From Eledone cirrhosa (Eukaryota): DNA of 64,000 nt. The position numbers were made by a program, and so were the translations under genes. Within the stretch, counting starts at the first letter, position 1, and each line of letters opens with the position of its first letter. The notes beneath the pieces were generated by a model. The model saw only the letters and a program-made list of their open reading frames with translations, had not been told where the DNA came from and made no database searches. Where the stretch lies: positions 28,458,001 through 28,522,000 of the forward strand of contig OZ024746.1 in NCBI GenBank assembly GCA_964016885.1, given 5' to 3'. This document shows positions 12,571-59,467 of the stretch, one piece after another.

Positions 12571-12681
12571 TGAAAAAAAATGAAAACGAAATTTCATTTC
12601 TCACTCTTAGTATGGCACTTACTTAAATGTAAGTATGTATGTATACGTACATACATATATGTATACAGACGTACAGTAGCA

Positions 12682-12690
<9 letters not shown>
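12571..12690 (-). repeat. Displaced terminal part of the first HHR-satellite unit
   Basis: Near-identical to satellite segment tgaaaaaaaatgaaaacgaaatttc...gtagcatgca (e.g. 18275-18390). It continues at 17925 after the PLE. Confidence 0.9.
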
Positions 12691-12719
<29 letters not shown>

Positions 12720-13204
12720 TAAACGGAATAGAAAATGCTGACAAATTGTTCACAGTTGAAAAATGGTTTAATTAGGAATAAAAGAGTATTAGTGATTGTA
12801 TGGGTTAGTATTCAGTTGTGGTTTTAAGTTTTTAAGTTTTTACCGGTTGCGCATTTCTAAATGCTTTTCAAAAATAATTTTGAGATAGAGTGTCCGTGCT
12901 GTTTGCTCTGATCTGATTAGTTTTGGGAATTCTACCTGTTTTTATGTTAAAAAAATGGCTCCAGCGTTATTTTTGTGTTGCAAAAATGCTTGTGGTCAAA
13001 ACAATTTTGATTGGTCGGTAGAGGTCATGTGAATGTAAAAAGTTGATTTTGCGCCAAGACTGTTTTTATGTTAAAATGTTAGAAAAGTGGCTCCAGCAAA
13101 AATTATGGTCAAAAATTATGGTCAAATTTTGATTGGTCGGTAGAGGTCATGTGGATAAAAAATTGGTTTTGCGCCAAGATTGAGAAATGACTCTTTCACA
13201 ACAA

Positions 13205-13262
<58 letters not shown>

Positions 13263-13698
13263 TAGTAGTAGTAAGGTGTTCGATGCTGCGACAATAGCCA
13301 CCAGCGATGTGTGTCAAATGGCTATTAAGATAAGTGTGTGTGTGTGTGTGTGTGTGCGTGTGCGTACATACACACAGCAGAGTCATTCGAAGGTCAAAAG
13401 ATATTTTTCAGCTTTTGTCTTATACGGAGAAGTGCGTGTGTGTGTGTGTGTGTGTATAAGTCTCTTTGTATGTTGATGTACGCGTGTGTATGTGTTTGTG
13501 TATATATGTGTGTGTGTGTGTGTGTGCGTGTGTGGGTGGACCAGTATTTTTTTCCCCCCTGGTAAAATGGTGTACATTATTCGATTTTTTCAGTAAAATC
13601 GGTTCTCTTAATAGAACATCAACAATCTTAACAATAAAAGGTGTGAAATGATATTCACTATATATATATATACTCACACACACACATATATATATTTT

Positions 13699-13735
<37 letters not shown>

Positions 13736-13877
13736 TACATACATATATATGCACATATATTTTTTTGTATTGCACCATAGAGCATGTGTGTTTACGTGTG
13801 TCATTGTGTTTATATGTGGGTAGAGATGTGTGCTGATGTAGATATGTATGTTGACGTGTGTATGTTGTGGGTTCGTC

Positions 13878-16199
13878 TTAGGGAGAAGTGTTTAGACGGG
13901 GTCCGTATTTGTTAATGAAGTAAGATTCCTTGCTGATGCGCTGGGTGTGGGTGGCATTATCTTTAAATTTGTAGAGGGGAAAGATTCTGAAGTTGGGATG
14001 ATTTTGGGCGGCGCAGGTATCAATGTGTTCACTCAGTGGTATTTTCCTGTATTCCCGTATTTTAATTTGGGATCTATGGACAGTCATGCGTTGGCGGAGG
14101 CTGTTTTTGGTCTGGCCTATGTATTGTTCTCGACAACCTGAACAAGTTAATACATATATTAAATTTTCCGATGCACATGTGAAATTGTGTTTTACTATAA
14201 AACGTTGTCCATCTTTGAAATAGAATTCCGAACCCTCTATTAGGTTGATGCAAATGCCACAGTTGGGTCTATCGCATTTTTTTACTGTGGGTTTCGTTGT
14301 TGTGGTTGGCAGTACTTTGGCATGTGTTAAGATGTTTTTCATTGACTTGGATTGTCTTTTGCTCTTTATGATATCGTGTGTTCGTAGAATTTGGTTCATT
14401 CTATGGTCCTTTTTCAATACAGGGATGTTCTGGAGGATGGTGTCAAAGGCCTCGTTGTTGAGGGGGTTGTGTGTGGAGATGTATGGAAGAGCTTTTAGTT
14501 TTGGTTGATTTACTTTAGGGTGTCTAAGGTCCTGGGTACTGAGTTTTAGGGCACGTTGGATTCCATTGTCAATTAGTGATGCAGGGTAGTCCCTGCCTAT
14601 GAGTGTGTCCTTTAGTTCTTGTAGCCGTAAGTAGCAGATGTTTTTATTGGAGACTATAGTACAGATTCTCTTGGCTAAGTTGTAGGGAATATTAATTTTA
14701 ACGTGTCTAGGGTGGCAAGAGTTGAAGGGGAGGTATTGCTTGGAGTCTGTGGGCTTGTAGTATATGTCTGTTTCTATTTTTTTGTTATGGATCTTAATGA
14801 GGATGTCGAGGAAGGGGAGTTGTTGATGGCTGTATTCCATCGTGAAGTTAATATTTGTGTTGAGCCCATTTATAAGGGTGTGAAATTCTTTAAGTTTTTC
14901 GATGTTTTCGTGCCAAAGGATGAAGCAGTCATCAAGATATCGCTTCCAGTTCCTTTCAATGTGTAAGTGGAGGGTGTTTCCAAATTTGTTTAGGACTTTA
15001 GTGTAGAGGGTGATTTCCAGGTATCCCATGACTAGGTTGGCATACGTAGTGGCTGTTTTCGTTCCCATAGCGGTCCCAGATTTCTGCCTGTAGGGTTTGT
15101 TATTGAAAACGAAGTAATTGTTCTCCAAGATAAATTTGAGTCCCTCTATCACGAATTCTTTTTTGATGCGTTGTGGGAGTTCATTGTGGAAGTTATCCAC
15201 CCAGAATTGGATAGCTTCTATTCCTAGGTTGTGGGGGATGTTGGAGTATAGGTTGACTACATCGAACGTCACTAGTAGGGTTTGTTCAGAAAGTGGCATA
15301 TTAGGGAGGTGATTGAGCATATCTAGGTCGTCCCTTATATAGCTTTTGATGTGCTTGAGGAAGGGTTTGAGAAGGGTATCAATGAAGTTGCTAAGACGGT
15401 GCGTTTCGCAAGCGGGGCCTGCTATTATAGGTCTTAATTTGAGATCATTGGGTGAGGGGACATTGATGACTATGTCTGTGGCTTCCTTGCATGCCTTACT
15501 GATTGATTCGCTTTTATGTACTTTAGGGATACCGTAGAAAAGGCTGGATTTACTTGTGAAGTCTGTGATGAAGCTGAATTCCTTGTTAGTGAGTCCTTCT
15601 TTGTATTGGTTGATTAGAGTTTTTAGGTTTCTCATAATTTTCTGTTGATTGTAGTGTTCAGCCTTTTCGTAGTATGTTTCGTTTTCCAAAGTGGAGAGCG
15701 CTAAGTTGATATAGAATTCTGTCTCCATTAGGACTACTGTACTCCCTTTATCAGCCTCTTTAATTGTAATGGTTCTGTCGGTTTTTAATCTATTTAATTC
15801 TTCCCATTCTTTCTTGTTAAGGTTTGGCTTGTGTTTTTGTCTGTGCAAGTGTTGGTAAGGGAAGTTTGTGATGTGTTCACAGAATTCGTCCAGGATTTTA
15901 TTTCTACCTTTTGAAGGGGTGTAATTGCTTCTATTTCTGGCTAATGATTCATCCTCATTGTACTGGTCGAATAGTTGTTCACTAAGTCGTAACTTTCTAC
16001 AGAAGTCTGTGATGTCTTCCTTCATTTCATAGTAGTTAGGACGTAGTGGGGTCGGTGTGAATTTAAGACCTTTGGAGAGTAAGTTGATAAGGTTGGGTGT
16101 TGGTTCTGCACTAGTAAGATTGATAACTTTTATTACTATCGGTTTCTCCTCCCTGTCTTGTGTTATTTTGTTTGCCTGTATCTGTGTGCTGTGTCTAAA
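13878..16199 (-). CDS. PLE reverse transcriptase - GIY-YIG endonuclease
   Basis: Motifs VINLT..LLSKGLKFTPTP, ADKG, PKVHK, LRPII, FDVVNLYSNI, GTAMG, RYLDD, CDRPNCGIC linker, LIYVLTC..C..QYIGQT..LRQRMTVH. The frame is open 58 codons upstream of the ATG at 16025. Confidence 0.95.
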   Translation of the reverse strand, partial: FRHSTQIQANKITQDREEKPIVIKVINLTSAEPTPNLINLLSKGLKFTPTPLRPNYYEMKEDITDFCRKLRLSEQLFDQYNEDESLARNRSNYTPSKGRNKILDEFCEHITNFPYQHLHRQKHKPNLNKKEWEELNRLKTDRTITIKEADKGSTVVLMETEFYINLALSTLENETYYEKAEHYNQQKIMRNLKTLINQYKEGLTNKEFSFITDFTSKSSLFYGIPKVHKSESISKACKEATDIVINVPSPNDLKLRPIIAGPACETHRLSNFIDTLLKPFLKHIKSYIRDDLDMLNHLPNMPLSEQTLLVTFDVVNLYSNIPHNLGIEAIQFWVDNFHNELPQRIKKEFVIEGLKFILENNYFVFNNKPYRQKSGTAMGTKTATTYANLVMGYLEITLYTKVLNKFGNTLHLHIERNWKRYLDDCFILWHENIEKLKEFHTLINGLNTNINFTMEYSHQQLPFLDILIKIHNKKIETDIYYKPTDSKQYLPFNSCHPRHVKINIPYNLAKRICTIVSNKNICYLRLQELKDTLIGRDYPASLIDNGIQRALKLSTQDLRHPKVNQPKLKALPYISTHNPLNNEAFDTILQNIPVLKKDHRMNQILRTHDIIKSKRQSKSMKNILTHAKVLPTTTTKPTVKKCDRPNCGICINLIEGSEFYFKDGQRFIVKHNFTCASENLIYVLTCSGCREQYIGQTKNSLRQRMTVHRSQIKIREYRKIPLSEHIDTCAAQNHPNFRIFPLYKFKDNATHTQRISKESYFINKYGPRLNTSP

Positions 16200-17527
16200 A
16201 AATGGTTGGGGTAGAGGGGTTGTCTGCTGATGTTAAGTGGTCTCCTGTGTTTGTTATATTCCTTGTTGTTGTAAAATGTGGTTCGGGTTGGTGGTTGTAG
16301 ATTGAATGGGGTGTTCCTGTACTGCGAGTATGGGTGTGTGTTTCTATGTGCCATGTTGTATTGTGGTGTTATAAGTGGCCTACGTTGTTGGTTGTATCGT
16401 GTGGTGTGGGTTTGCTGTGTATTGTGGAAGTGAGAGTTGAGAAAATGGTAATTACCTTGCTGTCCCCTTGAGGAGGGGAAGTTGTTGCATCTATCATGGC
16501 GGTGGTATCTTTTCCCTATGTTTGACGATGAGGAATCCGCATAGTAGTTGAGTGATTTGGTATGGTGTCTCCTTGAAGGGGGAAAGTTGTAAATGTCATT
16601 CTGGGGGAGATGATTTCTTGGGTTTTTGTTCCTTCTTATGGTAGCGAGGTTGGGAAGTTCATCTTCGGTGTGGTGCTTCCTTCTTCGTTTGTTTGAGGCT
16701 TGGGGGTTTGAGAAGTTGTTGTGCGGTTCAGTTATGGGTTTTCCTATTTTTATGAACGGGTTATTGGAGGTGTAATCCGTTCGAAAAGTCGATTCATAGT
16801 GTAGGAACCAAGCGGCACTTTTTTCCCAGCGTTGAAGGGATTTCAGTTCTTCTCTGTTGCAGTCCCCTTTCCATAATTTGGAGATCTTCTCTACCTTGGG
16901 GCCTTCAGTTTTGTTGTTGATTTCCAGGAGGATCTCTTCATCGATGGTTTCGATTTTTTCCTCATTTGTCTGGGCCCTCAGTTTAAGAAGTTCAATTTCT
17001 GTCTTCATTTTTTCCTATGCCATTCTTTCCCTAAGGTGTCTTTGAGGTTCGGGTTCATTTGGAATGGACTTTATTTGTAGTTTACGGAGGTGAGTTAGAG
17101 GGGTTGAGTTAAGCCATTTTTCATATATCTCTGCTTTGTTGTGATTTTGTATCATCTTCCAGAATGAGAACTTTCTGTCTCTGAGGGATTTGTTCCATTT
17201 TGGAATTGTTCGAATTTTCATTTTGTGTGAATCAATCTCACATGGTTCTTCGTTGGTTTTTCCTGGGTTGGTAGTAGTGAACATAGTTTGGATAGTATCG
17301 CAAAGGTTTGGGAGTTTGTCGCCGATTTTGGAGCGTTTGTATCCGGTGGCGGTTTCCTTATTTGTGGAGTCAAGTTTGTCGACCAGCAAAGATAGGTTGG
17401 TGTTGATTTTCTTGAGTTCCTGTAGGATCTCTTCATTTGAGTTGATGAGGGTTGTATCCGTTTTTGTTGGCATTTTCTGTATCTCGTGTGAGGATATGAT
17501 AGTTAAAAGAATAGAGGTGTAACACAC
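16163..17527 (-). CDS. PLE ORF1 (coiled-coil N-part, basic low-complexity C-part) with one in-frame TAG at 17015-17017
   Basis: The 170-aa and 281-aa ORFs share a frame (atg gca TAG gaa aaa atg), lie inside the terminal repeats and overlap the RT frame in -1. Confidence 0.65.
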
Positions 17528-17602
17528 AAGTTATTATATATTGGTAAACGGAATAGAAAATGCTGACAAATTGTTCACAGTTGAAAAATGGTTTAATTAG
17601 GA

Positions 17603-17657
<55 letters not shown>

Positions 17658-17934: not shown

Positions 17935-18105
17935 TACACATATGCATACAGGTACACATACGTATATGCACGCATCAGTTTAGCCGGCGTTTATTATAAC
18001 GCCGGCCGCTTTGTTCGTTTGTTTGTCAACAAAGCGAACAGCCTGAATTTATGCCATACGGTGGTAAGGCAACCACGTCACCTTTTTGTTCAACACTGAC
18101 ACAGG

Positions 18106-18150
18106 AACGATGTACTAGTTTCAAGCTTGTTAGCTATCATCAGCACCGTT
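18106..18150 (-). ncRNA. Minimal type-I hammerhead (further copies at 18605-18649, 19124-19168, 19663-19707, 20196-20240)
   Basis: Minus strand reads aacggtg CTGATGA t agct aaca agct t GAAA ctagTA catcgtt: 7-bp stem I, 4-bp stem II, palindromic ACTAGT stem III, GUA site. Confidence 0.85.
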
Positions 18151-18385
18151 TACCCATCTGCCAGATAGTTGAACGTTCGAAAGTATATACTTTCCTTATG
18201 AAAATTAACGGCTGAGCAGCCTAATTTGCATATTGAGTGAGTTAAATCGGTCAGGCATACCGAAAACGATAAGTTGAAAAAAAATGAAAACGAAATTTCA
18301 TTTCTCACTCTTAGTATGGCACTTACTTAAATGTAAGTATGTATGTATACGTACATACATATATGTATACAGACGTACAGTAGCA

Positions 18386-18433
<48 letters not shown>

Positions 18434-18884
18434 TACACATATGCATACAGGTACACATACATATACGCACGCATCAGTTTAGCCGGCGTTTATTATAACG
18501 CCGGCCGCTTTGTTCGTTTGTTTGTCAACAAAGCGAACAGCCTGAATTTATGCCATACGGTGTTAAGGCAACCACGTCACCTTTTTGTTCAACACTGACA
18601 CAGGAACGATGTACTAGTTTCAAGCTTGTTAGCTATCATCAGCACCGTTTACCCATCTGCCAGATAGTTGAACGTTCGAAAGTATATACTTTCCTTATGA
18701 AAATTAACGGCTGAGCAGCCTAATTTGCATATTGAGTGAGTTAAATCGGTCAGGCATATCGAAAACGATAAGTTGAAAAAAAATGAAAACGAAATTTCAT
18801 TTCTCACTCTTAGTATGGCACTTACTTAAATGTAAGTATGTATGTATACGTACATACATATATGTATACAGACGTACAGTAGCA

Positions 18885-18952
<68 letters not shown>

Positions 18953-19403
18953 TACACATATGCATACAGGTACACATACATATATGCATGCATCAGTTTA
19001 GCCGGCGTTTATTATAACGCCGGCCGCTTTGTTCGTTTGTTTGTCAACAAAGCGAACAGCCTGAATTTATGCCATACGGTGTTAAGGCAACCACGTCACC
19101 TTTTTGTTCAACACTGACACAGGAACGATGTACTAGTTTCAAGCTTGTTAGCTATCATCAGCACCGTTTACCCATCTTCCAGATAGTTGAACGTTCGAAA
19201 GTATATACATTCCTTATGAAAATTAACGGCTGAGCAGCCTAATTTGCATATTGAGTGAGTTAAATCGGTCAGGCATACCGAAAACGATAAGTTGAAAAAA
19301 AATGAAAACGAAATTTCATTTCTCACTCTTAGTATGGCACTTACTTAAATGTAAGTATGTATGTATACGTACATACATATATGTATACAGACGTACAGTA
19401 GCA

Positions 19404-19491
<88 letters not shown>

Positions 19492-19942
19492 TACACATAT
19501 GCATACAGGTACACATACATATATGCACGCATCAGTTTAGCCGGCGTTTATTATAACGCCGGCCGCTTTGTTCGTTTGTTTGTCAACAAAGCGAACAGCC
19601 TGAATTTATGCCATACGGTGTTAAGGCGACCACGTCACCTTTTTGTTCAACACTGACACAGGAACGATGTACTAGTTTCAAGCTTGTTAGCTATCATCAG
19701 CACCGTTTACCCATCTGCCAGATAGTTGAACGTTCGAAAGTATATACTTTCCTTATGAAAATTAACGGCTGAGCAGCCTAATTTGCATATTGAGTGAGTT
19801 AAATCGGTCAGGCATACCGAAAACGATAAGTTGAAAAAAAATGAAAACGAAATTTCATTTCTCACTCTTAGTATGGCACTTACTTAAATGTAAGTATGTA
19901 TGTATACGTACATACATATATGTATACAGACGTACAGTAGCA

Positions 19943-20024
<82 letters not shown>

Positions 20025-20524
20025 TACACATATGCATACAGGTACACATACATATATGCACGCATCAGTTTAGCCGGCGTTTATTATAACGCCGGCCGCT
20101 TTGTTCGTTTGTTTGTCAACAAAGCGAACAGCCTGAATTTATGCCATACGGTGTTAAAGCAACCACGTCACCTTTTTGTTCAACACTGACACAGGAACGA
20201 TGTACTAGTTTCAAGCTTTTTAGCTATCATCAGCACCGTTTACCCATCTGCCAGATAGTTGAACGTTCGAAAGTATATACTTTCCTTATGAAAATTAACG
20301 GCTGAGCAGCCTAATTTGTATATTGAGTGAGTTAAATCGGTCAGGCATACCGAAAACGATAAGTTGAAAAAAAATGAAAACGAAATTTCATTTCTCACTC
20401 TTAGTATGGCACTTACTTAAATGTAAGTATGTATGTATACGTACATACATATATGCTGCTCAGCCGTTAATTTTCATAAGGAAAGTATATACTTTCGAAC
20501 GTTCAACTATCTGGCAGATGGGTA

Positions 20525-20569
20525 AACGGTGCTGATGATAGCTAACAAGCTTGAAACTAGTACATCGTT
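20525..20569 (+). ncRNA. Minimal type-I hammerhead (further copies at 21034-21078, 21549-21593)
   Basis: The same motif read directly on +: aacggtgctgatgatagctaacaagcttgaaactagtacatcgtt. Confidence 0.85.
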
Positions 20570-20740
20570 CATGTGTCAGTGTTGAACAAAAAGGTGACGT
20601 GGTTGCCTTAACACCGTATGGCATAAATTCAGGCTGTTCGCTTTGTTGACAAACAAACGAACAAAGCGGCCGGCGTTATAATAAACGCCGGCTAAACTGA
20701 TGCGTGCATATATGTATGTGTACCTGTATGCATATGTGTA

Positions 20741-20798
<58 letters not shown>

Positions 20799-21249
20799 TG
20801 CTACTGTACGTCTGTATACATATATGTATGTACGTATACATACATACTTACATTTAAGTAAGTGCCATACTAAGAGTGAGAAATGAAATTTCGTTTTCAT
20901 TTTTTTTCAACTTATCGTTTTCGGTATGCCTGACCGATTTAACTCACTCAATATGCAAATTAGGCTGCTCAGCCGTTAATTTTCATAAGGAAAGTATATA
21001 CTTTCGAACGTTCAACTATCTGGCAGATGGGTAAACGGTGCTGATGATAGCTAACAAGCTTGAAACTAGTACATCGTTCCTGTGTCAGTGTTGAACAAAA
21101 AGGTGACGTGGTTGCCTTAACACCGTATGGCATAAATTCAGGCTGTTCGCTTTGTTGACAAACAAACGGACAAAGCGGCCGGCGTTATAATAAACGCCGG
21201 CTAAACTGATGCGTGCATATATGTATGTGTACCTGTATGCATATGTGTA

Positions 21250-21313
<64 letters not shown>

Positions 21314-21764
21314 TGCTATTGTACGTCTGTATACATATATGTATGTACGTATACATACATACTTACATTTAAGTAAGTGCCATACTAAGAGTGAGAAATG
21401 AAATTTCGTTTTCATTTTTTTTCAACTTATCGTTTTCGGTATGCCTGACCGATTTAACTCACTCAATATGCAAATTAGGCTGCTCAGCCGTTAATTTTCA
21501 TAAGGAAAGTATATACTTTCGAACGTTCAACTATCTGGCAGATGGGTGAACGGTGCTGATGATAGCTAACAAGCTTGAAACTAGTACATCGTTCCTGTGT
21601 CAGTGTTGAACAAAAAGGTGACGTGGTTGCCTTAACACCGTATGGCATAAATTCAGGCTGTTCGCTTTGTTGACAAACAAACGAACAAAGCGGCCGGCGT
21701 TATAATAAACGCCGGCTAAACTGATGCGTGCATATATGTATGTGTACCTGTATGCATATGTGTA

Positions 21765-21890
<126 letters not shown>

Positions 21891-22013
21891 TGCTACTGTA
21901 CGTCTGTATACATATATGTATGTACGTATACATACATACGTATATGTATATTTATATATATATATATGTATATGTATATATATATACATATATGTATATT
22001 TATATATATCTAC

Positions 22014-22903: not shown

Positions 22904-22962
22904 GCTGCAATATAGATTTCGGTGATAAACATTATTCAACAGCTATGACCTCATCAGGCAGC
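22904..22962 (-). ncRNA. Type-I hammerhead ribozyme motif
   Basis: gctgc CTGATGA ggtcatag...ttatcacc GAAA tctata TT gcagc: 5-bp stem I, G-C closed stem II, AUU site. Confidence 0.65.
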
Positions 22963-32728: not shown

Positions 32729-32767
<39 letters not shown>

Positions 32768-32769
32768 GT

Positions 32770-33400
32770 GAATATGCATGTATGTATACGTACATACATA
32801 TATGTATATAGACGTACAGTGTATGTATATATATATACATACTACTCTACGTCTGTATACATATATGTATGTACGTATACATACATGCATATTTACATTT
32901 AAGTAACTGCCGTACTAAGAGTGAGAAATCAAATTTCGTTTCATTCTATTCCATTTATCGTTTTCGGTGCGCCCAGCCGACTAAACTCACTCGATATGCA
33001 AATTAGGATGCTCAGCCGTTAATATGCATAAGGAAAGTATAGACTTTCAGACGTTCAACCATCTGGCAGGAAGGTATACGATGCTGACGATAGCTAATAA
33101 GCTTGAAACTAGTACATCGTTCCTGTGTCAGTGTTGAACAAAAAGGTGACGTGGTTGCCTAAACACTGTACGGCGTAATTCGGGCTGTTTGTTTGTTTAA
33201 ACAAACAAACCGAGCATTATAATAAATGTTCGGTAAGCCGATACGTGCATATATATATATGTGTACGTGTATGTATATATATACATACTACTGTACGTCT
33301 GTATACATATATGTATGTACGTATACATACATGCATATTTACATTTAAGTAACTGCCGTACTAAGAGTGAGAAATGAAATTTCGTTTCATTCTATTCTAT
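32770..33400 (+). repeat. Diverged ~1.25-unit copy of the HHR satellite (446-bp period), with HHR at 33078-33120
   Basis: Aligns with 20800-21250. Direct repeats start at 32841 and 33287. HHR reads acgatg CTGACGA tagctaataagctt GAAA ctagTA catcgt. Confidence 0.85.
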
Positions 33401-35645: not shown

Positions 35646-35854
35646 CCATTGTAAAGTCTTATACCTTTCGTTTGTAATTCACATTGTATTTCTAGTATTA
35701 GGTAGCTGACGCCGTGGTCTAATTAGAAACAACCGTCAAGTGTTACGCATCAATATTTTAAATGTTTTTTTTCATCAATTTACATACACTCCCGATTGAT
35801 ATAGTCTTTCGAGATTTAAAAGTAAACTTGGGATTCGCTCTACCTCCACTACCG

Positions 35855-38012
35855 TCATCACCACCAGCTACCACCACCACTACCATCATCACCACCAGCT
35901 ACCACCACCACTATCATCATCACCACTGCCACCACCACTACCATCATTACTACCGCTACCACCACTAACAGCACCAACATCACTACCATCACCTCTACCA
36001 TCATCACTACCACTACCACCACCACTGCTACCATCATCAATACCACTACCACCGCCACTACCATCGTTACTACCACTACCATCATCACCACCGCTACCAT
36101 CATCACTACCACTACCACCACCACTACCATCATCACCACCGCTACCAGCACCACTACCACTACCACCACCACTACTACTAACACCACTACTACCATCATC
36201 ACTGCCACTACCAGCACCACTACCACTACCAGCACCACTACTACTACCACCACTACTACCAGCACCACTACCACTACCAGCACCACTACTACTACCACCA
36301 CTACTACCATCATCACTATCACTACCAGCACCACTACCACTACCAGCATCACTACCACTACCACCACCACTACTACTACCACCACTACTACCATCATCAC
36401 TGCCACTACCAGCACCACTACCACTACCAGCACCACTACTACTACCACCACTACTACCAGCACCACTACCACTACCACCACCACTACTACTAACACCACT
36501 ACTACCATCATCACTGCCACTACCAGCACCACTACCACTACCAGCACCACTACCACTACCACCACCACTACTACTAACACCACTACTACCATCATCACCA
36601 CCGCTACCAGCACCACTACCACTACCACCACCACTACTACTAACACCACTACTACCATCATCACTGCCACTACCAGCACCACTACCACTACCAGCACCAC
36701 TACTACTACCACCACTACTACCAGCACCACTACCACTACCAGCACCACTACTACTACCACCACTACTACCATCATCACTATCACTACCAGCACCACTACC
36801 ACCACCACTACCACTACCACCACCACTACCACTACCACCACTACTACCATCATCACTACCACTACCAGCACCACTACCACCACCACTACCACTACCACCA
36901 CCACTACCACTACCACCACTACTACCATCATCACTACCACTACCACCACCACTACTACTACCACCACTACTACCATCATCACTACCACTACCACGACCAC
37001 TACCACTACCACCACCACTACTACTACCACCACTACTACCATGATCACTACCACTACCAGCACCACCACCACTACCAGCACCACTACCACTACCAGCACC
37101 ACTCCTACTACCACCACTACTACCATCATCACCACCGCTACCATCATCACTACCACTACCACCACCACTACCATCATCACCACCGCTACCATCATCACTA
37201 CCACTACCACCACCACTACTACTACCACCACTACTACCATCATCACTACCACTACCAGCACCACTACCACTACAACCACTACCACTACCAGCACCACTAC
37301 CACTACCACCACCACTACTACTACCACCACTACTACCATCATCACTACCACTACCAGCACCACTACCACTACAACCACTACCACTACCAGCACCACTACC
37401 ACTACCTCCACTACTACCATCATCACCACCACTACCATCATCACTACCACTACCACCACTACTACCATCATCATTACCACTACCAGCACCACTACCACTA
37501 CAACCACTACTACTGCCAGCACCACTACCACTACCAGCACCACTATCACTACCACCACCACTACCATCATCACCACCGCTACCAGCACCACTACCACTAC
37601 CACCACTACTACTACCACCACTACTACCATCATCACCACCACTACCATCATCATTACCACTACCACCACTACTACCATCATCACTACCACTACCAGCACC
37701 ACTACCACCACTACCAGCACCACTACCACATCCAGCACCACTATCACTACCACCACCACTTCCATCATCACCACCACTACCAGCACCACTACCACTACAA
37801 CCAGCACCACTACCACATCCAGCACCACTATCACTACCACCACCACTTCCATCATCACCACCACTACCAGCACCACTACCACTACCAGCACCACTACCAC
37901 TACAACCAGCACCACTACCACATCCAGCACCACTATCACTACCACCACCACTACCAGCACCACTACCACTACCAGCACCACTACCACTACCACCACCACC
38001 ACCACCACCATT
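35855..38012. repeat. Complex (ACC/ACT/ATC/AGC)n trinucleotide satellite
   Basis: About 2.15 kb of in-phase trinucleotide variants, which give the poly-Thr and poly-Val pseudo-ORFs. Confidence 0.9.
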
Positions 38013-38688
38013 ACCCCGAACATTACACCTGTCAGAGACAGTCCCAGCATCAACAACACTACCAATTCCTTCAATGTCGGTTGTTGCAATGTTGTCCTTT
38101 GTTTGACTGGAAACAAAGTAAAAGAAAGTATCTTGTTTAAGGACACAAGCGGCCGTCAGATATCGAACTCACTACATTACGATGATGACAGGAACTCGTC
38201 TAACCATTACGTCACTTGACTCCATTCAGCGTAGTTCACATGAAAATAAACAGTAATGGTGGTTCCATCATTGCAAAGAATTTATCGTCCTGCAATACAA
38301 GCAAAACTGGATTAAAATTCTTTATTCAATATCTAGAAATCTACGTGTATTTTACATTGTATAAAGGTGTTTGATATTATAGGAATTTGTTAGACCCAAA
38401 TCTGGTTATATGATTTGAATGAAACATCACTTGATGTAATATATATATTATATGATATATATATATATAAACACATATATATATATATATATACATACAT
38501 ACATACATACATATCAAACATGCTTTGTGCGCGTTCAGCTGAATTAGATGTTCTATAGAAAATAATATACTATATATGAGATACATTTGTACGTATATAA
38601 GCACGTACACGGCCACACACATATACACATGCACCCAGTCACACACAGATATATAGAGATGTAATATACAAGTACAATGAAAGTTCCT

Positions 38689-54627: not shown

Positions 54628-57600
54628 TAACTGCAACACTTCCACCACCTCTAACTCTACCATCACCATAACCACAACCATCACTTCCACCACCTCTAAC
54701 TCTACCATCACAATAACCACAACCAACACTTCCACCACCTCTAACTCTACCATCACCATAACCACAACCAACACTACCATTACCTCTAACTCTACCATCA
54801 CCATAACCACAACCAACACTTCCACCACCTCTAACTCTACTATCCATAACCACAACCAACACTACCACCACCTCTAACTCTACCATCACCGTAACCACAA
54901 CCAACACCTCCACCACCTCTAACTCTACCATCACCATAACCACAACCAACACTTCCACCACCTCTAACTCTACCATCACCATCACCACCTCTAACTCTAC
55001 CATCACCATAACCACAACCAACACTACCACCATCTCTAACTCTACCATCACCGTAACCACAACCAACACTACCACCACCTCTAACTCTACCATCACCATA
55101 ACCACAACCAACACTTCCACCACCTCTAACTCTACCATCACCATAACCACAACCAACACTACCGCCACCTCTAACTCTACCATCACCATAACCACAACCA
55201 ACACTACCACCACCTCTAACTCTACCATCACCGTAACCACAACCAACACTACCACCACCTCTAACTCTACCATCACCATAACCACAACCATCACTTCCAC
55301 CACCTCTAACTCTACCATCACCATAACCACAACCATCACTTCCACCACCTCTAACTCTACCATCACCATAACCACAACCAACACTTCCACCACCTCTAAC
55401 TCTACCATCACCATAACCACAACCATCACTTCCACCACCTCTAACTCTACCATCACCATAACCACAACCAACACTACCACCACCTCTAACTCTACCATCA
55501 CCATAACCACAACCAACACTTCCACCACCTCTAACTCTACCATCACCATAACCACAACCAACACTACCGCCACCTCTAACTCTACCATCACCATAACCAC
55601 AACCATCACCATCACCACCTCTAACTCTACCATCACCATAACCACAACCAACACTACCACCACCTCTAACGCTACCATCACCGTAACCACAACCAACACT
55701 TCCACCACCTCTAACTCTACCATCACCATAACCACAACCATCACCATCACCACCTCTAACTCTACCATCACCATAACCACAACCAACACTACCACCACCT
55801 CTAACTCTACCATCACCATAACCACAACCAACACTGCTACCACCTCTAACTCTACCATCACCATAACCACAACCAACACTTCCACCACTACCTCTAACTC
55901 TACCATCACCATAACCACAACCAACACTGCTACCACCTCTAACTCTACCATCACCATAACCACAACCAACACTTCCACCACTACCTCTAACTCTACCATC
56001 ACCGTAACCACAACCAACACTACCACCACCTCTAACTCTACCATCACCATAACCACAACCAACACTACCGCCACCTCTAACTCTACCATCACCATAACGA
56101 CAACCAACACCATCACCACCTCTAACTCTACCATCACCGTAACCACAACCAACACTACCACCACCTCTAACTCTACCATCACCGTAACCACACCCAGCAC
56201 TTCCACCACCTCTAACTCTACCATCACCATAACCACAACCAACACTTCCACCACCTGCTCTAACTCTACCATCACCATAACCACAACCAACACTACCACC
56301 ACCTCTAACTCTACCATCACCATAACCACAACCAACACTACCGCCACCTCTAACTCTACCATCACCATAACGACAACCAACACCATCACCACCTCTAACT
56401 CTACCATCACCGTAACCACAACCAACACTACCACCACCTCTAACTCTACCATCACCGTAACCACACCCAGCACTTCCACCACCTCTAACTCTACCATCAC
56501 CATAACCACAACCAACACTTCCACCACCTGCTCTAACTCTACCATCACCATAACCACAACCAACACTTCCACCACCTCTAACTCTACCATCACCATAACC
56601 ACAACCAACACTTCCCCCACCTCTAACTCTACCATCACCATAACCACAACCATCACTTCCACCACCTCTAACTCTACCATCACCATAACCACAACCAACA
56701 CTACCACCTCCTCTAACTCTACCATCACCATAACCACAACCAACACTACCACCACCTCTAACTCTACCATCACCATAACCACAACCAACACTACCGCCAC
56801 CTCTAACTCTACCATCACCATAACGACAACCAACACCATCACCACCTCTAACTCTACCATCACCGTAACCACAACCAACACTACCACCACCTCTAACTCT
56901 ACCATCACCGTAACCACACCCAGCACTTCCACCACCTCTAACTCTACCATCACCATAACCACAACCAACACTTCCACCACCTGCTCTAACTCTACCATCA
57001 CCATAACCACAACCAACACTACCACCACCTCTAACTCTACCATCACCATAACCACAACCAACACTACCGCCACCTCTAACTCTACCATCACCATAACGAC
57101 AACCAACACCATCACCACCTCTAACTCTACCATCACCATAACCATAACCAACACTTCCACCACCTGCTCTAACTCTACCATCACCGTAACCACAACCAAC
57201 ACTACCACCTCCTCTAACTCTACCATCACCATAACCACAACCAACACTACCACCTCCTCTAACTCTACCATCACCATAACCACAACCAACACTACCACCA
57301 CCTCTAACTCTACTATCACCATAACCACAACCAACACTTCCACAACCACCTCTAACTCTACCATCACCATAACCACAACCAACACTACCACCACCTCTAA
57401 CTCTACCATCACCATAACCACAACCACCACTACCACCACCTCTAACTCTACCATCATCATAACCACAACCAACACTACCACCACCTCTAACTCTACCATC
57501 ACCATAACCAACACTTCCACCACCTCTAACTCTACCATCACCATAACCACAACCATCACCATCACCACCTCTAACTCTACCATCACCATAACCACAACCA

Positions 57601-59350
57601 TCACCATCACCACCTCTAACTCTACCATCACCATAACCACAACCAACACTTCCCCCACCTCTAACTCTACCATCACCATAACCACAACCAACACTTCCCC
57701 CACCTCTAACTCTACCATCACCATAACCACAACCAACACTACCGCCACCTCTAACTCTACCATCACCATAACCACAACCAACACTTCCACCACCTCTAAC
57801 TCTACCATCACCATAACCACAACCATCACCATCACCACCTCTAACTCTACCATCACCATAACCACAACCAACACTTCCACCACCTCTAACTCTACCATCA
57901 CCATAACCACAACCATCACCATCACCACCTCTAACTCTACCATCACCATAACCACAACCATCACCATCACCACCTCTAACTCTACCATCACCATAACCAC
58001 AACCAACACTTCCCCCACCTCTAACTCTACCATCACCATAACCACAACCATCACCATCACCACCTCTAACTCTACCATCACCATAACCACAACCAACACT
58101 TCCACCACCTCTAACTCTACCATCACCATAACCACAACCATCACCATCACCACCTCTAACTCTACCATCACCATAACCACAACCATCACCATCACCACCT
58201 CTAACTCTACCATCACCATAACCACAACCAACACTTCCCCCACCTCTAACTCTACCATCACCATAACCACAACCAACACTTCCCCCACCTCTAACTCTAC
58301 CATCACCATAATCACAACCAACACTACCGCCACCTCTAACTCTACCATCACCATAACCACAACCAACACTTCCCCCACCTCTAACTCTACCATCACCATA
58401 ACCACAACCAACACTACCGCCACCTCTAACTCTACCATCACCATAACCACAACCAACACTTCCCCCACCTCTAACTCTACCATCACCATAACCACAACCA
58501 ACACTACCACCACCTCTAACTCTACCATCACCATAACCACATCCAACACTTCCACCACCTCTAACTCTACCATCACCATAACCACAACCATCACTACCAC
58601 CACCTCTAACTCTACCATCATTATAACCACAACCAACACTACCACCACCTCTAACTCTACCATCACCATAACCACAACCATCACCATCACCACCTCTAAC
58701 TCTACCATCACCATAACCACAACCAACACTTCCACCACCTCTAACTCTACCATCACCATAACCACAACCATCACCATCACCACCTCTAACTCTACCATCA
58801 CCATAACCACAACCAACACTTCCACCACCTCTAACTCTACCATCACCGTAACCACACCCAGCACTTCCACCACCTCTAACTCTACCATCACCATAACCAC
58901 AACCAACACTTCCACCACCTCTAACTCTACCATCACCATAACCACAACCATCACTACCACCACCTCTAACTCTACCATCACCATAACCACAACCATCACC
59001 ATCACCACCTCTAACTCTACCATCACCATAACCACAACCAACACTACCACCACCTCTAACTCTACCATCACCATAACCACAACCATCACCATCACCACCT
59101 CTAACTCTACCATCACCATAACCACAACCAACACTTCCACCACCTCTAACTCTACCATCACCATAACCACAACCATCACCATCACCACCTCTAACTCTAC
59201 CATCACCATAACCACAACCAACACTTCCACCACCTCTAAATCTACCATCACCATAACCACAACCAACACTTCCACCACCGCTAACTCTACCATCACCATA
59301 ACCACAACCAACACTACCACCACCACCTCTAACTCTACCACCACCATCCC
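54628..59350. repeat. 45-bp minisatellite, ~105 copies, with higher-order structure
   Basis: Unit tctaactctaccatcaccataaccacaaccaacacttccaccacc. Diagnostic acg variants at 56097/56370 and 56823/57096 give a 273-bp period. Confidence 0.95.
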
Positions 59351-59467
59351 CACCACCACAGCCTACATAGCAACAATCAGCACGGACGGCAGCCACACAA
59401 CCACCACCACTACAATCACCAACATATATCTGTCTATCTTCGTCTCCGTATCTATCTTTATAGATGA

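What the first reader, a model, noticed from the sequence alone, without database searches (positions are those of the whole stretch)
32841..33400. Diverged satellite copy preserves RNA structure through compensatory changes
Seen: the 33-kb copy has many substitutions, yet its HHR changes are harmless (N7 T>C; stem I G-U becomes A-U; loop II aaca>aata). The hairpin ccggcgtt-ataata-aacgccgg is replaced by ccgagcatt-ataata-aatgttcgg (33210-33233), which still pairs fully. The adjacent hairpin becomes gtttgtttgtt-ta-aacaaacaaac. Inference: selection acts on the folded RNA, and two subfamilies (446 bp and ~500 bp) exist.
Basis: partly seen in the sequence, partly recalled or inferred. Interest (0 to 1): 0.72.

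Follow-up and report, generated by a model that had tools for sequence, protein, structure and literature searches.

The report
Jumping ribozyme repeat keeps whole fold
This is one decaying copy of a very abundant non-coding jumping repeat that carries a predicted self-cutting RNA motif; its paired sequence changes are real, but they were fixed in the parent lineages that kept copying themselves, which likely had to keep the whole RNA folded, and the element belongs to a known class.

Summary
The 33-kb copy is not a drifted offshoot of the 18-22 kb array: it belongs to an older subfamily (446-bp unit, 95-98% identical copies genome-wide) of a repeat with 28,412 exact matches to its type I hammerhead. 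There is a ladder of about ten subfamilies plus three sister families, not two. On a tree of 51 copies, shared changes in stems end as base pairs 38:12, private changes 52:83 (p=6e-6); G-U versus A-C is 16:2 against 34:34. A sister family repeats the first result. Pairing is kept far outside the ribozyme, including arms 260 bases apart. Only one pair is significant alone. This copy's own changes break two pairs, so selection acted on mobile parent RNAs, not on this copy. Insertions are two-armed, sit in TA microsatellites and end at two fixed points, like Penelope-like elements. Verdict: new member of the known non-LTR retrozyme class; no RNA data. The scan noted the same class and conclusions before on other DNA of this genome.

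The parts
32763..32831 (-). Short inverted left arm of the insertion; ends at fixed end 1 and runs into (TA)n
   Evidence: BLAST hit of unit positions 4-61 on 32820-32763; sequence; same end in other copies
32821..32842 (.). 22-bp TA-rich palindrome at the junction of the two arms
   Evidence: read from the sequence
32832..33397 (+). Right arm: one full 446-bp unit plus about a quarter unit; ends close to fixed end 2 and runs into (TA)n; one hammerhead only
   Evidence: (L001)
32908..33175 (+). Long-range helix P1, arms 32908-32915 and 33168-33175; both-sided changes at 2 of 8 pairs within the family; sister families D and E have other letters that pair at the same place
   Evidence: (helix 1)
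32919..32992 (+). Helix P2 (32919-32925 with 32986-32992) enclosing two hairpins; one pair is A-U in 40 and G-C in 11 of 51 copies; this copy's private C at 32930 breaks a pair of the first hairpin
   Evidence: (E=0.003)
32995..33006 (+). 12-base motif (TATGCAAATNAG) also found about 77 bases upstream of this genome's U6 genes; kept in all four families; candidate promoter element
32995..33030 (+). Hairpin H2; this copy's private A at 33008 breaks a pair
33033..33048 (+). Hairpin H3 whose centre (33038-33043) is a TATA-like box in the family; this copy has a private G at 33042
33053..33139 (+). Helices that extend hammerhead stem I (33053-33059 with 33133-33139; 33063-33068 with 33126-33131)
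33078..33120 (+). Type I hammerhead: stem I 6 bp, core 33084-33090, stem II 4 bp over a U-U mismatch, GAAA 33105-33108, one-pair stem III with palindromic loop; predicted cut after 33114
   Evidence: architecture as described for axolotl motifs in PMC7229834; no Rfam hit at gathering score
33145..33159 (+). Hairpin H5; letters differ between subfamilies and families, pairing kept
33180..33241 (+).
17937..21954 (.). Related two-armed array of the young subfamily A (5 hammerheads on -, 3 on +), inverted at about 20456
12717..17607 (-). Young Penelope-like element (RT plus C-terminal GIY-YIG, 784-aa open stretch 13878-16232) lying in the TA spacer between the A array and its terminal fragment (12571-12716)

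Best explanation
The 33-kb stretch is a single-ribozyme, decaying insertion of a high-copy non-coding repeat (non-LTR retrozyme) that is likely copied through a folded RNA by Penelope-like retrotransposon enzymes, and its compensatory changes were likely fixed by selection on the parent RNAs that stayed mobile. Steps: tandem copies would be transcribed, perhaps from the U6-like motif plus TATA inside each unit (inferred); the hammerheads would cut as dimers through their palindromic stem III and release 420-510-nt monomers that may circularise (inferred from coral, mussel and axolotl retrozymes); a Penelope-type endonuclease/RT would nick a TA microsatellite and start copying at one of two fixed points 56-59 nt apart (the fixed ends and two-armed shape are shown; the enzyme is inferred). 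Only RNAs that keep the branched fold found new subfamilies (pattern shown; cause inferred). After insertion each copy decays without regard to pairing (shown).
For: Abundance and dispersal: 28,412 hammerhead matches vs 2 control; top 40 scored candidates 96-100% identical on many contigs. Fold: majority sequences of 14 of 14 subfamily groups fold to the same core layout, z -3.7 to -11.3, sense strand more stable than antisense in 14 of 14. On 51 real copies and 85 pairs, 95.5% of cells pair and 120 cells have both sides changed against 41 in shuffles. On the tree (92 pairs): shared changes end paired 38:12, private 52:83 (p=6e-6); G-U:A-C 16:2 vs 34:34 (p=0.003); stem:loop substitutions 53:80 vs 138:107 (p=0.003); 11 double-changed pairs vs null mean 3.3, maximum 10 of 150; summed covariation 196 vs null maximum 94. 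Replicate in sister family D (19 rows, 105 pairs): 13:1-2 vs 13:23 (p=0.0003), stem:loop 18:37 vs 37:19 (p=0.0006), six double-changed pairs. Compensation runs stepwise through G-U and mismatch intermediates, also in arms 260 nt apart. Ends: 60 of 87 mapped 3' ends lie at two points; 7 of 13 loci with ends on both strands have one of each and none has the same fixed end twice. Two internal RT start sites and inverted arms are Penelope hallmarks (PMC11167929; PMC8557442).
Against: No RNA evidence was obtained; cleavage, transcription and circles are untested. Only 1 of 92 pairs is significant alone. The structure was drawn from folds of these same subfamilies, so the counts lean towards it, and one hairpin was re-registered by hand. 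G-U excess is not significant in family D (4:1-2 vs 12:11, p=0.36), and 9 of the 16 shared G-U pairs came from A-to-G changes, which a mutational bias could supply. For the one family E copy folded, the antisense strand is more stable (-125.3 vs -104.5 kcal/mol). The active hammerhead fold is not the minimum-energy fold in the monomers. The neighbouring Penelope-like element has ends about 40 nt apart, not 56-59, and no canonical hammerhead was found in it, so the partner enzyme is not identified.
Confidence: 0.8

Rival explanations
1. The symmetry is made at DNA or cDNA level: template switching and slippage correct quasi-palindromes, with no selection on RNA.
For: The 33187-33210 hairpin is built of (GTTT)n/(AAAC)n repeats that change length on both arms; inversions with junctions inside palindromes are common in these insertions; both strands fold better than shuffles.
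Against: Correction gives Watson-Crick pairs on both strands alike, yet shared changes favour G-U over A-C 16:2 on one strand; compensation is stepwise and includes arms 65 and 260 nt apart; shared changes avoid stems; sister families with other letters keep the same helices.
Confidence: 0.08
2. Part of the pattern is mutational, from the RNA phase: A-to-I editing (or RT bias) of double-stranded RNA turns A-U into G-U and A-C into G-C, and these are copied into new masters.
For: Shared branches carry about 27 A-to-G vs 13 T-to-C changes, private branches 24 vs 23; 9 of 16 shared G-U pairs arose so.
Against: The excess is as large in loops (15:7) as in stems (12:6) and absent in family D (11:12); editing would raise, not lower, the change rate in stems. 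It still needs a folded RNA intermediate, so it adds to the best explanation more than it replaces it.
Confidence: 0.07
3. The RNA is kept by the host for a function of its own (a structured non-coding RNA family), and genomic copies are under selection.
For: U6-like promoter motif kept in four families; related circRNAs are abundant in other animals (PMC7229834).
Against: Private changes hit stems at least as often as loops and break pairs 83 of 135 times; this copy has broken pairs and an altered TATA-like box; ladder-shaped tree of successive masters.
Confidence: 0.05

Closest known systems
Metazoan non-LTR retrozymes (coral, mussel, axolotl; newt satellite 2) - Cervera and de la Pena 2020, PMC7229834 (passages, two results sections and Discussion read)
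   Same: Non-coding tandem or dispersed unit with one type I hammerhead, low GC, highly self-paired monomer, tens of thousands of copies; one-pair stem III with palindromic tetraloop as in axolotl HHR_Amex1 and U-U at the base of stem II as in HHR_Amex2.
   Different: Unit is longer (420-510 nt vs 170-400); both weak features sit in one motif; holds an internal TA tract; two-armed insertions with two fixed ends; no RNA shown here. The word 'covariation' does not occur in that paper's main text.
Non-LTR retrozymes as non-autonomous Penelope-like elements - Li, Clavereau and Pollet 2026, bioRxiv 10.64898/2026.07.22.740005 (parts 1-3 of 5 read: introduction to discussion; supplements closed)
   Same: Families of monomers, dimers and multimers; co-occurrence with Penelope-like elements; single-hammerhead copies regarded as inactive offspring.
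   Different: That survey covers 31 vertebrates, three insects and a coral; here no pLTR of an autonomous element matching the unit was found.
Penelope-like elements with C-terminal GIY-YIG (PMC8557442, passages; PMC11167929, parts 1-2 of 4; PMC4209133, part 1 of 4)
   Same: Inverted 5'-truncated arm, a 'tail' between two RT start points, AT-rich or (TA)n targets, type I hammerhead.
   Different: No coding capacity; tail of 56-59 nt rather than 30-40; hammerhead is the canonical rather than the minimal form.

Membership tests
Non-LTR retrozyme | Type I hammerhead in each unit | tested here: met
   33078-33120; 8 more in the window array; 28,412 genome matches. Rfam gave no hit at gathering score.
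Non-LTR retrozyme | Short non-coding unit in tandem and dispersed copies, no LTR | tested here: met
   Units of 422-509 nt as monomers to long arrays; coding capacity of the unit was judged by eye, not by an ORF call.
Non-LTR retrozyme | Two hammerheads in tandem so that a monomer can be released | tested here: not met
   Not met for this copy (one hammerhead, 1.26 units); met by other copies of the subfamily (L002, L008).
Non-LTR retrozyme | Highly self-paired monomer | tested here: met
   z -3.7 to -11.3 against 30 shuffles each; circular folds. Prediction only.
Non-LTR retrozyme | Transcription, self-cleavage and circular RNA | not testable with these tools
   No run on record as RNA was available.
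Penelope-mobilised element | Inverted 5' arm and two fixed 3' ends (tail), AT-rich target | tested here: met
Penelope-mobilised element | Sequence shared with an autonomous Penelope-like element | tested here: inconclusive
   Only the neighbouring element was compared: a 13-of-14 match near an end, but at a different end, and a tail of about 40 nt.
snRNA-type internal promoter (newt satellite 2 kind) | Upstream element and TATA box spaced as in host snRNA genes | tested here: inconclusive
   Motif matches U6 upstream DNA (exact in 2 of 5 loci printed, one change in the others); spacing to TATA 41-45 vs 46-48 in U6; absent upstream of U2 (0 of 4).

The most novel reading that the evidence does not exclude
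Four diverged retrozyme families of this genome share one conserved branched RNA of ten or more helices that works as a recognition scaffold for a Penelope reverse transcriptase, holding its two start sites in single-stranded U-rich linkers on either side of the P1/P2 stack, while a U6-type promoter is written into two of the hairpins; the fold, not the hammerhead alone, is what is selected, and the genome records its stepwise compensatory evolution.
Probability: 0.35. Interest if true: 0.62.

Novelty: new member of a known kind. Interest (0 to 1): 0.38.

Why it matters
Retrozyme circles have so far been described with predicted folds; this family gives comparative support for a whole-monomer structure and separates selection on mobile masters from neutral decay of copies. 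With tens of thousands of copies it is a natural data set for how RNA base pairs compensate step by step, and it points to testable RNA features that Penelope enzymes may read. It does not reveal a new kind of element.

Tried and rejected
Rfam scan of the window at gathering score: no hit. DNA search with the 63-base conserved core returned nothing because very common words are skipped. RNA runs: no RNA holder listed; laying three contig sets of unknown kind showed only family variation. RNAalifold on the mixed alignment of both families gave almost no structure because of gaps and misregistration, so helices were taken from single-subfamily folds. A search for both-sided change of the first stem II pair found 2 matches, neither in the family; one led to sister family D. 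First D count had two helices misregistered and was redone. Idea that the unit is the pLTR of the neighbouring Penelope-like element: rejected, no shared sequence beyond a short end motif and only 1 of 25 loci of that element's end had retrozyme motifs nearby. Idea of a U2-type promoter: motif absent upstream of U2. The newt satellite 2 promoter paper (PMC308520) is not held; it is cited only through a passage in PMC2220036. Sequence look-up in earlier findings gave nothing. Paper searches listed no title or abstract on a cephalopod retrozyme or on whole-monomer covariation of animal retrozymes; the library is partial and supplements were not read.

Full report
Observation. The copy is 81-82% identical to the units of the array at 17.9-21.9 kb. 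Small corrections: the second hairpin needs a 4-nt loop, and the two hairpins share base 33210.

What it is. The 33-kb unit has at least 40 relatives at 96-100% identity over the 346 bases searched (40 of 1,988 candidates scored); the array unit has 40 at 99-100% (40 of 1,387 scored). A pattern for the shared hammerhead has 28,412 exact matches against 2 for the control. From the fetched loci 152 distinct units were extracted, 149 passed a colinearity filter and 63 remained after merging near-identical ones; 51 belong to this family and 12 to sister family D. The sample is biased: best hits to the two window types plus the first matches on one contig. The tree is a ladder of about ten groups, with the 33-kb type near the base and the array type at a tip. 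A pattern joining an 8-base motif to a hammerhead with another stem II gave 9,857 matches against 16 and showed sister families D, E and F.

The ribozyme. Type I, with stem I of 6 bp, stem II of 4 bp over a U-U mismatch and a one-pair stem III capped by a palindromic tetraloop. PMC7229834 describes each weak feature in one of two axolotl motifs, which cut poorly as monomers and well as dimers; PMC4209133 explains the dimer fold. The 33-kb copy has one hammerhead, so by the two-ribozyme criterion of the 2026 preprint it could not release a monomer.

Is the fold selected? On the 51 real copies 95.5% of cells pair and 120 cells show both-sided change against 41 in shuffles, but pairs with such change (13 vs 11.5) and further pair types do not exceed shuffles, and that control ignores relatedness. 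I therefore mapped changes on the tree, with H5 re-registered by one gap (92 pairs). Changes shared by several loci end paired 38:12, private changes 52:83 (p=6e-6). G-U versus A-C is 16:2 and 34:34 (p=0.003). Stem versus loop substitutions are 53:80 and 138:107 (p=0.003). Against 150 simulations that reshuffle substitutions along the same tree, 11 pairs are double-changed (null mean 3.3, maximum 10) and summed covariation is 196 (null maximum 94), but only one pair is significant alone (E=0.003). This is my own R-scape-like test, not R-scape. Family D (75 distinct units, 19 rows) repeats the paired-outcome and stem-avoidance results (p=0.0003, 0.0006) with six double-changed pairs, including stem II, but not the G-U excess (p=0.36). 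One family E copy folds to the same layout, though its antisense strand is more stable; the F copy matches only in part. The structure came from these sequences, so some circularity remains.

How the changes arose. Shared branches show about twice as many A-to-G as T-to-C changes (27:13; private 24:23), not seen in D; editing or RT bias may contribute.

This copy. Against 12 other B copies it has four private substitutions: 32930 and 33008 break pairs, 33042 alters the TATA-like box, 33237 is unpaired. It is decaying; the compensations are inherited.

Insertion anatomy. The insertion has a short inverted arm (32763-32831) and a long arm (32832-33397), both ending in (TA)n. Of 87 mapped 3' ends, 60 fall at two points 56-59 nt apart; 7 of 13 loci with ends on both strands have one of each and none has the same fixed end twice. 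Inverted arms and a tail are Penelope marks, and a purified Penelope enzyme cuts both strands of AT-rich DNA and starts copying at two internal RNA sites. Both end points lie in U-rich linkers, mostly unpaired in the predicted folds, beside P1 and inside P2, which suggests, as inference, why the fold is kept. A young Penelope-like element (GIY-YIG above its Pfam cut-off, RT below it; 40 of 40 scored end copies identical) sits in the array's TA spacer and has the same two-ended, TA-targeted form with ends about 40 nt apart. It is a candidate helper, not a shown one.

Promoter lead. U2 upstream DNA lacks it. Newt satellite 2 is reported to use an snRNA promoter (seen only as a citing passage). 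Function untested.

Comparison and verdict. It works like, and meets the sequence-level criteria of, a non-LTR retrozyme; RNA-level criteria could not be tested. Earlier notes of this scan reached the same class, the two-armed form, the U6-like motif and lineage-level selection on other DNA of this genome; they are leads, and the numbers above are my own. New member of a known kind, with good comparative support for a whole-monomer fold. Interest 0.38.

Noticed in passing
window 12717-17607 (-): Young Penelope-like element with RT and C-terminal GIY-YIG, preceded by a CxxC motif (Neptune-like, label from PMC8557442 passage); many identical end copies, two fixed ends about 40 nt apart, (TA)n targets; no canonical hammerhead found in it.
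   Followed up: partly
window 22917-22957 (-): Another hammerhead-like core with a longer stem II, unrelated to this repeat; may belong to another Penelope-type family.
   Followed up: no
L199-L203 (family F): The U6-like motif is repeated two to three times in tandem upstream of the hammerhead, inside a long hairpin.
   Followed up: no
L163, L189-L198 (family E) and L128-L208 (family D): Sister retrozyme families with the same order of parts; D has a perfect 5-bp stem II with a both-sided change between its subfamilies.
   Followed up: partly
window 35842-38015 and 54634-59359: Long ACC-rich tandem arrays (18/66-bp and 45-bp periods) that may encode Thr-rich mucin-like repeats.
   Followed up: no
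window 20456-20460: The subfamily A array flips strand here; its two outer ends are again one of each fixed end.
   Followed up: partly
G000:C3 about 307.35-307.45 Mb and C19 about 31.78-31.84 Mb: Tandem arrays of U2 (about 2.2-kb period) and U6-like genes (about 1.8-kb period).
   Followed up: no
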